A DNA stretch of 64,000 bases, taken from contig OX597819.1 of assembly GCA_951406725.2 (NCBI GenBank), positions 108,438,001 to 108,502,000 of the forward strand. The letters are read 5' to 3'. The translations under genes and the position numbers were made by a program. The stretch comes from Octopus vulgaris (lineage: Eukaryota). The notes under the pieces were generated by a model, which was not told where the DNA came from, ran no database searches, and saw nothing but the letters and a program-made list of their open reading frames with translations. How positions within the stretch are numbered: the stretch's first letter is position 1; each line of letters starts with the position of its first letter. Shown in pieces: positions 8,988 to 32,145 of this stretch.

Positions 8988-9398
8988 TAAACAATTATAA
9001 ATAAGGGCAAAAAAATTTTCTTTGCCTATATGCTGAAAATAGACACTAAATTGTCTAGCCACATTAAATATTTTCACTATTATTATTACACATGGAATTT
9101 CTATTTGAATATATTTAGGGTATCTATATGTATTCATGACATTGCCTCTGCTTTTCTGTGCGTATGTGTATTTCATTTCTTTTCATTGTGTTCTTCGCTG
9201 ATGAAGAAAAATCCTTTGGATTAATCTTGAAATCGGACCGATACAGAGATAACTAAATTTTTACAAATTTCTATTAGCTCATTTCAACACGTGTAATAAT
9301 AATAGTAAAAATATTTAATGTGTTTAGACAATTTAGCATCTATTTTCAGCATATAGGCAAACAAAATTTTTTCTTTTCCCTTATTTAATTGTGTTTAT
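8988..9398. mobile_element. Fold-back element: ~110-bp inverted arms around a hammerhead-like core
   Basis: Arms 8988-9094 and 9288-9398 are diverged reverse complements; the spacer contains CTGATGA..GAAA. Confidence 0.75.
9190..9253 (+). ncRNA. Degenerate minimal hammerhead ribozyme motif
   Basis: CTGATGA(9198) - stem II aatcc/ggatt - GAAA(9229) - palindromic stem III atcgg-a-ccgat - A; stem I is partly decayed. Confidence 0.55.
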
Positions 9399-9469
9399 AA
9401 TTTCGCCTTAAAAGTTATTTTTCCATATGCTAGTGACTGATAAAATTTTTAGCAATTTTATCCTTATAT

Positions 9470-9530
<61 letters not shown>

Positions 9531-9573
9531 TGTGTGTGTGTGTGTGTAGGTTGTTAGAAGTCATGTACAGATT

Positions 9574-9747
9574 TTGTATATTAAGAAAAAGGAAGAAATC
9601 AGAATTTTGGATAATTCTTTATTTAGTGCTCTCTCGTCCATTTATGCAGACTCTTCAGAATAAATTTTCTGAAGAGTCCCCATGAATGGATGAAAGCACT
9701 AAATAAAGAATTATCCAAAATTCTGATTTCTTCCTTTTTCTTAATAT

Positions 9748-9751
<4 letters not shown>
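9574..9751. mobile_element. 178-bp palindromic element with hammerhead-like motif
   Basis: Outer ~53 bp are perfect inverted repeats. The + arm has CTGAAGA(9669) gtcc..ggat GAAA(9692) gcact; the mirror copy is degenerate. Confidence 0.7.
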
Positions 9752-29500: not shown

Positions 29501-29645
29501 AAATAATGTTTATTTGCCAATGTAAAGTGGCAGTCCTGATTAGGACAAATGCTACTACCTTTTAGCAAAACATCTTCTCCAGCTGGCTATTGATGCACTA
29601 ACTGCATCCTTACACTTCGAACAAGGGAAACAGCTGAAATCGATA

Positions 29646-29691
29646 TCTGTGTACCAATAGTTTCTGGGTTATTTCTCTTCATCAGCACAGA
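29646..29691 (-). ncRNA. Minimal hammerhead ribozyme motif
   Basis: Minus strand: tctgtg CTGATGA agagaaataaccca GAAA ctattgg TA cacaga. Perfect 6-bp stem I and GUA triplet; stem II is weak. Confidence 0.65.
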
Positions 29692-29981
29692 ATAATTGCT
29701 TGGCTAGAGATGACAGCACTAGGTCTTGTTTGAAGTATATACTTTTAAAGTGACATACAGTCACTGATCTCGCAAATAGAAGAGCTATTAGTTCTAAGTT
29801 TCTGAATGTAAGACATGCAGCAACAGTACTTTAAAGTAAAGTTTATTTGCCAATGTAAAGTGGCAGTTTTGATTAGGACAAATGTTACTACTTTTTAGCC
29901 CCAGGAAAGCATTTCCAGCTGACTATCGATGCACTAACTTCGAACAAGACCTAGTGCTGCCATCTCTGACTGGGTGAATAT

Positions 29982-30027
29982 TCTGTACTGATGAAGAGAA
30001 ATAACCTAGAAAGCATTGGTACACAGA
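29982..30027 (+). ncRNA. Minimal hammerhead ribozyme motif (more decayed copy)
   Basis: tctgta CTGATGA agagaaataaccta GAAA gcattgg TA cacaga. Confidence 0.55.
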
Positions 30028-32145
30028 TATCACTTTGAGCTGAGTGGGGACACTAGCTCCCTTGTTCAAAGTGTAATGATGCTGTTTGTGCGTTGATAGC
30101 CAGCTGAAGATGATGTTTCCCTGGGGCTAAAAAGTAGTGACATTCATCCTAATCAGGACTGCCACTTTATGTTGGCAAATAAACTTTACTCTAAAGTACT
30201 GTTGCTGCATGTCTCTTGTTCAGAGAATTAGGACTAACAGTTTTTCTATTACTTTTAAATAAACCTGAAGCAAATTAAAATAAACTCAAAACAATTTTTA
30301 ATAAACTTGAAGTGAAATCTTTTTCTAATTAAGTAATGCCTTCAAACTAATACTATTTTTTTTTTTATTAATGAATAATTACAGTTTAATTTTGACTGGT
30401 AAATACCCAAAAATTTTTTTCATGAGTCTATGGAAAAAATGTTTTAGAACTACAAAGTATAGTTTCTCTGGTTGTAAATGCACATCAATATATTCCAACA
30501 TACTTGCTACTGTAGCAAGTATGTTGGGACAAATTGAATGTAAGTATTTACAAAGCTTCAACACATCTCAATAGTTTCATGTTCTACCTTCTAGACTTTG
30601 CCACACACACCTCTGTAATGCACATTCTAAATGCACTCATTTATATGCTGTCTTAACACTGTGCCGTAGCCACTGTTTCCTAATCTTCTCATTTAGTGAC
30701 AAACAGTATATGTGTATGACTTTCAAGTGTAAACTTTTCTTTGCACTCCCATTGTTTCCTTATTTGACACTTCGTGAAGTAAGAGTAACTTGTAGCTTGA
30801 GGCAAGTTACTGTTGCTTTGAGACTGACTTTTGTCATCCATAATTAAATGCAGCATTGTAGACTTAAGTCAAATGATGAAATGAATTCAGGCTTAAAACA
30901 AATCAGCATAAATACAAACAATTCAAAACAGACATCTAAGTTTTATCTAAACATCTACTATTTTAATTTGCTCAAGGATTATTTTGATTTGTTCTTAGGT
31001 TATTATTATTTTTTTTTTGCTTAAAGTTTATTTCAATTTTCTTTTAAATAATTTTAATTATTAGCTGAAAAGGTGTTGTGTTTGGTATTTGTAGAGAAGT
31101 ACCTTACTGGTGTGTGTGTGTGTGAAGTATTTATATAGGTATACCTAACTGATACATGTATGTGATGTTTATATAGATGTGCCTCTGGAGTGTGTTTTAC
31201 ACTTTACTGATGTATATGGTATTTATATGTAGATATATCTTGTGTGTGCATGTAATTTATATGTAAATGTCACTCACTAGTGTGTGTGAGTATGTGTGGT
31301 GTTGATGTTAAATGCAGGAGGAATAGTCTTCTGAATGTGACACTAGTATATCATAGTTATATCTAGATGGTGTACTACTCCTAACAGTTAATTTTGTACT
31401 GGGCTCGTGTTTAGCTGGCCTGGTACATAGTCCTAACAGGTGAACTAAGACAATAGAAAAAGTTTTCTAAGAAAGACATTGAAGCAACTACAATAGATTT
31501 GAACAAATAGCCTTCAAGTTAGTCTTCTAATATTTATCTACTTGGTGTTTTGGTTTATACTGTTAATTTGCATGAATGTTATTGTTGTTTAATCCAGGTC
31601 AGACCTAATTCAGCAAAACTATGAACAAAGGTATTTTAGCTATGATCATCTCATCTTTTATTGAGAAATGATGCATCTAAGAATTCATAATTGAAAGTGC
31701 TTTTTTTGCTTTTTTCAAGCATTGTGTGATTTGAGGAAGATTTGGCTATTATTTCTAGTAGGTAGTGACCATATAGAGAGATTCCCATAAATTGATTTTT
31801 ATGTAGATGTATACTGTATTGTTATTTAGTTTTTGATCAACCTTGATTGAGAATATGTATGGTCAGACATGTTCTAGTTGTGACTATGCCATCTTACTCT
31901 CATGCATCGTATATCTAAGTCTACATTGTTCAGTGTGTTCCTCTCTTTTTATGATGATAGGTATAATTTGAAGATTTGGCTGTTATGCCTTGCAGGGCAA
32001 ATAGCCCTGTATTTTTGTATTACAGTATTATTTATATATTGTTTAGGTCACCTGACTACAAAGCTTGTCTATATGCAAGTGAGCATGCAAGACAAACACC
32101 AGTCCTCTGGTCTTACTAATATCTATTCTGTCTTTTATTTTGCAG

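What the first reader, a model, noticed from the sequence alone, without database searches (positions are those of the whole stretch)
8988..30250. Recurrent architecture: four sequence-dissimilar fold-back elements each carrying a hammerhead ribozyme motif
Seen: loci 8988-9398, 9574-9751, 15269-15850 and 29508-30250 share no similarity I can see except a CTGA(T/A)GA..GAAA core with a (near-)palindromic, loop-less stem III (atcggaccgat, agcact, acaattgt, actattggt). All are embedded in inverted repeats and three abut (TA)n tracts. Established: Penelope-like elements carry minimal hammerheads with palindromic stem III in pseudo-LTRs that can be tandem or inverted, and are thought to cleave as dimers. 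Inference: a diverse set of non-coding, ribozyme-bearing palindromic retroelements that look like MITEs but are mobilised by PLE RT/GIY-YIG proteins. They may be uncatalogued in this lineage.
Basis: partly seen in the sequence, partly recalled or inferred. Interest (0 to 1): 0.75.

Follow-up and report, generated by a model that had tools for sequence, protein, structure and literature searches.

The report
Penelope and retrozyme head-to-head insertion stubs
These four hairpin-shaped repeats are stubs of four unrelated jumping-gene families that carry hammerhead-ribozyme motifs (two Penelope-type retrotransposons and two short non-coding repeats); each hairpin is likely built anew on landing, with one arm tailed and the other not, which likely records the Penelope enzyme copying RNA into both sides of one DNA cut.

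Summary
All four loci carry type I hammerhead motifs (3 strict hits on both strands vs 0.05 in shuffles) and inverted arms. All four are multi-copy families in a 2.8-Gb, likely octopus, genome. They are not one class and not MITE-like units. C is the 3' end of a young autonomous Hydra-type Penelope-like element (PLE) with an RT/GIY-YIG ORF. B is the 3' end of an old Neptune/Nematis-type PLE. A (497 nt) and D (358 nt) are non-coding head-to-tail units that fit non-LTR retrozymes. About half of the copies are inverted, each at a different turning point. In every fold-back with both ends resolved, one arm ends at a 'core' end and the other carries a 'tail' (C 27/27, A 11/11, D 9/9, B 7/7 by eye). 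The best model is two-ended target-primed reverse transcription by a PLE enzyme; the ribozyme is a passenger. Inverted pLTRs, one-sided tails, PLE hammerheads and retrozymes are all in print. I found no paper with the strict one-tail count or this footprint on retrozymes. The scan has noted the same pattern before, in this genome and in others.

The parts
8988..9091 (-). A: inverted, 5'-truncated arm of the 497-nt retrozyme-like unit; ends at the core end in a (TA)n tract; has no hammerhead
   Evidence: (87% to monomer 305-418)
9094..9471 (+). A: long arm, 0.8 unit, with hammerhead and about 80-nt tail (about 9399-9471), then (TA)n
9188..9253 (+). A hammerhead: CTGATGA 9198-9204, GAAA 9229-9232, predicted cut after 9243; stem I decayed in this copy, 6 bp in the family consensus
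9549..9668 (-). B: tailed arm (tail about 9549-9573); keeps a 6-bp stem I but its GAAA is mutated to GAGAGA
9662..9751 (+). B: untailed arm, 3' end of an old Neptune/Nematis-type PLE; core CTGAAGA at 9669; the 5' strand of stem I is cut by the inversion junction; abuts (TA)n
15270..15554 (-). C: untailed arm with an intact hammerhead (core at 15382, minus strand); ends in (TA)n
15553..15965 (+). C: tailed arm, the 3' pseudo-LTR of a Hydra-type PLE; hammerhead core at 15736, predicted cut after 15814, core end 15850, tail 15851-15965 (the sequence that precedes the ORF in full-length copies), then (TA)n
29508..29942 (-). D: 1.3 head-to-tail units of the 358-nt retrozyme-like repeat; hammerhead core at 29685; ends at the core end
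29937..30252 (+). D: tailed arm; hammerhead with a decayed stem III; 6-nt overlap at the head-to-head junction
29497..29506 (+). candidate 10-bp target-site duplication, left copy (single instance)
30253..30262 (+). candidate 10-bp target-site duplication, right copy

Best explanation
The four loci are head-to-head, 5'-truncated insertions of four hammerhead-bearing families (C a Hydra-type PLE, B a Neptune/Nematis-type PLE, A and D non-coding head-to-tail retrozyme-like units), and each fold-back was likely built at insertion by a PLE RT-endonuclease that primed cDNA from both sides of one cut. Shown: the family identities, ORF linkage for C and B, fixed head-to-tail junctions for A and D, variable turning points, exactly one tailed arm per resolved fold-back, short junction overlaps in many young copies, and arms closer to each other than to arms of other loci. 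Inferred: a dimeric PLE protein cuts both strands in a (TA)n or AT-rich target. One active site starts reverse transcription at the distal site (tail end) and the other at the proximal site (core end), likely on the same RNA or on RNA from one source. Both cDNAs stop early and are joined head to head by microhomology. A and D would borrow this enzyme and would be copied from multimeric or circular RNA, since they read through a fixed junction. The hammerhead is predicted to process the precursor RNA and plays no part in making the hairpin.
For: C: copies are 98-99% identical. L121 holds pLTR, a 941-aa stop-free frame, a 1.6-kb UTR and pLTR. The frame has RWK, DKT, YRDD, CxCX5C, a GIY-YIG-like motif and CxxC; CxH is seen in L122. 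These are the Hydra-clade marks listed in PMC8557442 (section 11). B: shared sequence extends more than 1 kb upstream to RT and EN fragments in the same orientation (L268 RT and EN; L280 EN), and related copy L294 has a CX4CxxC linker. A and D: the same junction sequence in 15 of 52 distinct A loci (2 more with a deletion or shift) and 15 of 30 D loci. Runs reach 1.72 units (A) and 2.6 units (D). No PLE ORF hit in 90 of 90 first loci; 1 place among 63 further loci has one, separated by about 550 nt of microsatellite. Consensus circles fold at z -7.4 and -6.5, against -0.15 for the C pLTR. Head-to-head inversion in C 34/63, A 26/51, D 15/30 loci. Resolved ends are core+tail in C 27/27, A 11/11, D 9/9, with none core+core or tail+tail; B 7/7 by eye. 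In C the tail is on the main arm 16 times and on the inverted arm 11 times. 12 of 34 C junctions overlap by 2-10 nt. Arm divergence within vs between loci: C 0.67% vs 1.33%; within<between in D 17/17 and A 17/21. Hammerhead helices covary across 7 Hydra-type sequences: 8 of 14 pairs change on both sides, and 0/500 shuffles reach the covariation score. A PLE protein cuts and extends both strands, starts at two sites that bound the tail, and is predicted to be a dimer (PMC11167929).
Against: The mechanism is not observed, only inferred from end anatomy. The core/tail windows were set after seeing the data, and many fold-backs have an unresolved end (C 7/34, A 16/27 junctions, D 6/15). Three are borderline: L329 +38/+127, L111 +108/+59, L119 +68/+22. 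22 of 34 C junctions show no overlap (0-206 nt gaps, partly from subfamily mismatch to the reference). About half of the copies have no inverted arm. The core end is followed by TTTATA, which resembles the TA target, so it could be an endonuclease cut or a pairing site rather than a start site. Closer arms could reflect gene conversion, and in A the effect is weak (15.3% vs 17.7%). No autonomous partner was found for A or D. Pfam did not recognise the C ORF; a related EN gave only a weak GIY-YIG hit (E 0.02). TSDs were not enriched over mismatched pairs in 19 A/D loci. Single genomic A and D units fold less well (z -0.8 to -4.8). Loci are the top 40 hits per search, not a random sample. Covariation among related sequences can exceed shuffles without structure, although the slid controls were also far lower.
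Confidence: 0.75

Rival explanations
1. Snap-back or self-priming: one truncated cDNA (or antisense RNA) folds back and copies itself, and the endonuclease trims the second end at the TA-like core end, leaving one tail.
For: It explains near-identical arms with shared variants, junction overlaps and one tail per insertion. Self-priming was proposed for head-to-head PLE palindromes in PMC3846280 (passage). The core end is followed by TTTATA.
Against: With a fixed order the tailed arm should always be the longer one at its 5' end. In C the tail lies on the main arm 16 times and on the inverted arm 11 times, and stubs of 50-290 nt carry tails beside main arms of 0.3-4.5 kb. It survives only if the first strand may start at either site.
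Confidence: 0.17
2. MITE-like palindromic ribozyme elements that transpose as whole hairpins.
For: All four window copies are fold-backs, and family copies number in the hundreds to thousands of first-look candidates.
Against: Turning points differ between loci, and about half of the loci are not inverted. B and C continue into PLE ORFs. The ends are asymmetric.
Confidence: 0.03
3. The fold-backs arise after insertion, either when a second copy lands in the same TA tract in opposite orientation or by hairpin-type rearrangement.
For: Strong microsatellite targeting could cluster insertions, and unrelated PLE pieces do lie beside B and A copies (L261, L350).
Against: The arms meet 5' end to 5' end with little or no host DNA between them. 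They are closer to each other than to other loci. The ends are strictly mixed, 47/47 by script, where independent events give at most one half each time.
Confidence: 0.05

Closest known systems
EN+ PLE insertion units with an adjacent inverted 5'-truncated pLTR and a one-sided tail (PMC8557442, passages and section 11; PMC3846280, passages)
   Same: Head-to-head inverted copy, partial tandems, tail at one end, microsatellite (TA)n bias, hammerhead in the pLTR, occasional 9-10-bp TSD (candidate in D).
   Different: Tails here are longer in A (about 90 nt), C (about 115 nt) and D (about 70 nt) than the 30-40 bp described; B's is about 25-35 nt. The papers call the tail optional or often one-sided, whereas here it was exactly one per resolved fold-back.
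Hydra clade of C-terminal EN+ PLEs (PMC8557442 section 11)
   Same: Family C has RWK, DKT, a CxCX5C linker, CxxC and CxH around the EN end, a hammerhead, and (TA)n targets.
   Different: It is about 4.9 kb rather than under 3 kb, with an Asn-rich linker (17% Asn overall) and a 1.6-kb 3' UTR. No tree against reference Hydra sequences was built.
Metazoan non-LTR retrozymes (PMC7229834, parts 2-3 of the text; bioRxiv 10.64898/2026.07.22.740005, part 1 and passages)
   Same: A and D are small, low-GC, non-coding head-to-tail units with a type I hammerhead and a strongly self-paired predicted circle. They co-occur with autonomous PLEs.
   Different: They are mostly dispersed 0.3-1.9-unit insertions rather than long arrays, and A (497 nt) is above the 150-450 bp range. 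They show the PLE inverted-arm and tail footprint, which I did not see described for retrozymes in the passages read. Circular RNA was not shown here.
PAc (Anolis Poseidon) in vitro mechanism (PMC11167929, parts 1-2 of 4)
   Same: Two RT start sites bounding the tail, AT-rich target, both strands cut and extended, hammerhead cleavage not needed for insertion.
   Different: In the parts read, the paper does not derive head-to-head insertions from the two sites; that link is my inference.
L1 twin priming (recalled, no call)
   Same: Two cDNAs primed from the two target strands and joined by microhomology.
   Different: In L1 the second primer anneals internally, so the inverted part does not duplicate the 3' end. 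Here both arms copy the same 3' end.

Membership tests
Type I hammerhead (PLE/metazoan) | CUGANGA and GAAA core with a UH cleavage site | tested here: met
   All four window loci; intact core in 29/59 A, 15/35 D and 11/24 B copies.
Type I hammerhead (PLE/metazoan) | Stems I-III with compensatory changes | tested here: met
   Seven Hydra-type sequences including C: 8/14 pairs change on both sides, 94% of cells paired. For A, B and D only consensus pairing was seen; A and D have an A-A apposition at the base of stem II.
Type I hammerhead (PLE/metazoan) | Self-cleavage of the RNA | not testable with these tools
   Only contigs were available.
Hydra-clade PLE (C) | [quoted passage not shown] | tested here: met
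   941-aa frame with YRDD and IY..FYIG. Homologues carry PF26215. Pfam itself gave no hit on the ORF.
Hydra-clade PLE (C) | RWK, DKT, CxCX5C linker, CxxC and CxH | tested here: met
   against PMC8557442 section 11
Hydra-clade PLE (C) | pLTRs with hammerhead; (TA)n target | tested here: met
Hydra-clade PLE (C) | Generally short (<3 kb) | tested here: not met
   About 4.9 kb; a descriptive rather than defining trait.
Hydra-clade PLE (C) | RT phylogeny inside the clade | not tested
   No reference sequences on hand.
Neptune/Nematis-type PLE (B) | RT, CX2-5CxxC linker and GIY-YIG upstream of the pLTR, same strand | tested here: met
   L268 holds RT, EN and the B end in line. The intact linker was read in related copy L294 and is frameshifted in L268.
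Neptune/Nematis-type PLE (B) | Neptune versus Nematis placement | not tested
   No tree.
Non-LTR retrozyme (A, D) | Head-to-tail unit with a fixed junction | tested here: met
   15/52 A and 15/30 D loci span the same junction.
Non-LTR retrozyme (A, D) | Non-coding, no linked RT | tested here: met
   Longest stop-free frames are 71 and 85 aa. No tblastn hit in 90 loci; one unlinked neighbour among 63 more.
Non-LTR retrozyme (A, D) | Unit of 150-450 bp, GC below 50% | tested here: inconclusive
   D: 358 nt, 39% GC, met. A: 497 nt, 31% GC, slightly over the size range.
Non-LTR retrozyme (A, D) | At least two consecutive full units with intact hammerheads | tested here: inconclusive
   D L395 has 2.6 units but no intact core by regex; the A maximum is 1.72 units with 2 cores counted in the locus.
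Non-LTR retrozyme (A, D) | Highly self-paired circular RNA, expressed | not testable with these tools
   Predicted only: z -7.4 and -6.5 for the consensus circles.
MITE | Fixed-length unit with the same terminal inverted repeats and TSD across copies | tested here: not met
   Variable turning points, half of the copies not inverted, asymmetric ends, no TSD enrichment.

The most novel reading that the evidence does not exclude
PLE integration is intrinsically two-ended. A protein dimer on one RNA always uses the distal start site on one target strand and the proximal site on the other. Non-LTR retrozymes (A, D) carry the same two-site signal and are inserted by the same route, so the one-tail rule is a direct genomic footprint of retrozyme mobilisation by PLE enzymes.
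Probability: 0.55. Interest if true: 0.6.

Novelty: new member of a known kind. Interest (0 to 1): 0.35.

Why it matters
How PLEs finish integration is unresolved, and the claim that retrozymes use PLE enzymes rests, in the papers read here, on co-occurrence and pLTR phylogeny. A strict core+tail rule shared by two PLE clades and two non-coding families gives a sharp test that an existing in vitro assay could run. Family C offers young copies with long open frames (about 980 aa) as a substrate. For annotation, such hairpins could be miscalled as MITEs or pre-miRNAs (Rfam's top hits here were sub-threshold miRNA models). The architecture itself is already described, and the scan has met it repeatedly.

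Tried and rejected
Rfam scan: no hammerhead among the 150 rows shown of 184; the hits were sub-threshold miRNA hairpin models. Pfam on the C ORF: nothing; on 5 related peptides: only a weak GIY-YIG hit and a spurious PLDc hit. PDB search: no hit. MFE folds of six isolated motifs did not give the full hammerhead fold and were not significant (z -0.06 to -1.56). TSD test over 19 A/D loci: no excess over mismatched pairs, because microsatellites swamp it. RNA: no RNA holder listed. Laying four guessed-RNA contig sets on an A copy gave low, patchy cover; one contig spans the junction, which cannot tell circle from tandem read-through. Apparent ORF links for B in L261 and L077/L264 and for A in L350 were rejected as independent neighbours. 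Twenty Hydra-type ORF loci were screened for A, B or D ends: only short, unlinked matches. L228 was dropped from the covariation alignment because it misaligned (vs 72). Duplicates dropped before counts: 11 of 74 C loci (overlapping fetches and a block of segmental copies) and 8 of 59 A loci. Genome-wide hammerhead-in-inverted-repeat enrichment could not be run. Literature searches for the one-tail rule or inverted retrozymes found no such paper in this library, which lacks most subscription papers; I read no supplements, which may hold octopus PLE consensus sequences (PMC8557442, PMC13282606).
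Full report
Observation. The four loci read as described. A type I hammerhead scan of both strands gave 3 strict hits (C twice, D once) and 4 medium hits (adding A), against 0.05 and 0.32 in 100 shuffles. B passes only the loose filter: its plus arm lost the 5' strand of stem I at the inversion junction, and its minus arm keeps stem I but has a mutated GAAA. 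Inverted arms were confirmed, and the loci share no BLAST similarity. The genome is 2.8 Gb. The closest named homologue of the C protein is from Octopus sinensis (72% over 40% of the query), so the host is likely an octopus.

Families. Each locus belongs to a dispersed family: first-look candidates were 1546 (C), 395 (A), 743 (B) and 2785 (D), of which 40 were scored per search.

Family C. Copies are 98-99% identical and extend 5' to variable lengths. The longest reach an endonuclease C-terminus. L121 is a full element: pLTR, a 941-aa frame, a 1.6-kb UTR and pLTR. The frame has RWK, DKT, YRDD, CKCRIKSRC, IY..FYIG and CQLC, with CVH seen in L122. These match the Hydra-clade marks in PMC8557442 (section 11 read). 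The RT search found 9449 candidates; several of the 150 scored lie in open frames of 940-1090 aa. Window 15851-15965 matches the sequence that precedes the ORF in L121, which makes it the PLE tail.

Family B. Three rounds of walking upstream extended shared sequence by more than 1 kb. L268 holds RT, EN and the B end in one orientation, and L280 holds EN and the B end. Related copy L294 has a CGDRRCGIC linker, a Neptune/Nematis trait.

Families A and D. The tail runs back into the head of the same unit through one fixed junction, in 15 of 52 distinct A loci and 15 of 30 D loci. The units are 497 and 358 nt with no long frame. No PLE ORF was found in 90 loci, and the one place among 63 more is separated by microsatellite. 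Runs reach 1.72 and 2.6 units. The consensus circles are strongly self-paired (z -7.4 and -6.5). The C pLTR and UTR are not (z -0.15 and +0.26), and single decayed units fall between -0.8 and -4.8. This fits non-LTR retrozymes (PMC7229834, parts 2-3 read).

Ribozyme. Across seven Hydra-type sequences, 94% of cells pair, 8 of 14 pairs change on both sides, 0 of 500 shuffles reach the covariation score, and slid controls pair 28-45%. Short palindromic helix III and dimer cleavage are described in PMC4209133 (passages). Cleavage was not tested. In a fold-back the two motifs are on opposite strands, and the C transcript is predicted to be one long duplex, so the inversion would silence the ribozyme rather than assist it.

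The fold-back. Head-to-head inversions occur in 34 of 63 C loci, 26 of 51 A loci and 15 of 30 D loci, at different turning points. Where both outer ends could be classed, one arm stopped at the core end and the other carried the tail: 27 of 27 (C), 11 of 11 (A), 9 of 9 (D) by script, and 7 of 7 (B) by eye. Unresolved cases were 7, 16 and 6; three are borderline (L329, L111, L119). The class windows were set after looking at the data. In C the tail was on the main arm 16 times and on the inverted arm 11 times, and 12 of 34 junctions overlap by 2-10 nt. Arms are closer within than between loci: 0.67% vs 1.33% in 13 young C loci, with 10 non-consensus variants shared by both arms; 17 of 17 in D and 17 of 21 in A, where the margin is small. 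All four window loci obey the rule. D has a single candidate 10-bp TSD, but TSDs were not enriched over 19 loci.

Mechanism. PMC11167929 (parts 1-2 of 4 read) reports that a PLE protein cuts and extends both target strands, starts reverse transcription at two sites bounding the tail, is predicted to be a dimer, and does not need hammerhead cleavage to insert. Joining this to the end rule gives the model: one cut in a TA-rich target, two cDNAs primed from the two sides at the two start sites, early termination, and microhomology joining. This is inference. The main rival is snap-back self-priming (proposed in PMC3846280, passages) with endonuclease trimming at the TA-like core end. It explains arm identity but not easily a tail on either the long or the short arm.

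Relation to known work. Inverted 5'-truncated copies, one-sided tails and (TA)n bias are standard PLE features (PMC8557442, passages; PMC3846280). A PLE origin of retrozymes is argued in bioRxiv 10.64898/2026.07.22.740005 (part 1 and passages). An octopus repeat annotation lists 30 recently active Penelope families, and its main text has no mention of ribozymes (PMC13282606, passages). Seven searches found no paper stating the strict rule or this footprint on retrozymes. The scan's own notes report the same pattern and a similar model in this and other genomes (looked up after my model was noted). One note reports arms from different subfamilies, which I did not see in C or D.

Verdict. Real and well explained: new members of known kinds. 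Interest is modest and comes from the end rule as a mechanistic test.

Noticed in passing
L007-L014, L020 (contigs C35, C36, C21, C1): One C-family insertion inside a larger LINE-like block recurs at 97-99% identity over the whole 3.3-kb locus, several times per small contig: a segmental or macro-satellite amplification.
   Followed up: no
L121:4730-7498: The Hydra-type ORF is 17% asparagine, with a long Asn-rich stretch between RT and EN. This recalls the N-rich inserts of Adineta Penelopes (PMC3846280 passage).
   Followed up: partly
L121:8775-8980 (C 3' UTR): An internal direct repeat of about 103 nt (84%) lies just upstream of the part retained in the window copy.
   Followed up: no
G000: At least three further Hydra-type subfamilies (about 95%, 87% and 67% RT identity), many with long open frames and their own covarying hammerheads.
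   Followed up: partly
family A and D consensus: Both have A opposite A at the base of stem II (CTGATGA-A...A-GAAA), and D's stem II is very weak, despite no other sequence similarity.
   Followed up: partly
window 30472-30553 and 22430-22520: An 82-nt imperfect palindrome with a perfect CCAACATACTTGCTAC core, and a 30-nt tandem repeat containing palindromic units; neither has a hammerhead core.
   Followed up: no
window 2889-4354, 16599-17789, 35009-36191: Inverted pairs of other abundant interspersed repeats, 1.0-1.2 kb apart.
   Followed up: no
L018, L030, L096, L107, L113, L234 flanks: Many further unrelated fold-backs lie in the flanks of fetched loci, so head-to-head stubs are common in this genome.
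   Followed up: no
L228:7160-7249 (-): Another strict hammerhead (palindromic ACTAATTAGT) belonging to none of the four families.
   Followed up: no
P0013: A database protein named as an ankyrin-repeat protein contains a 72%-identical piece of the Hydra-type RT; likely a gene-model chimera.
   Followed up: no
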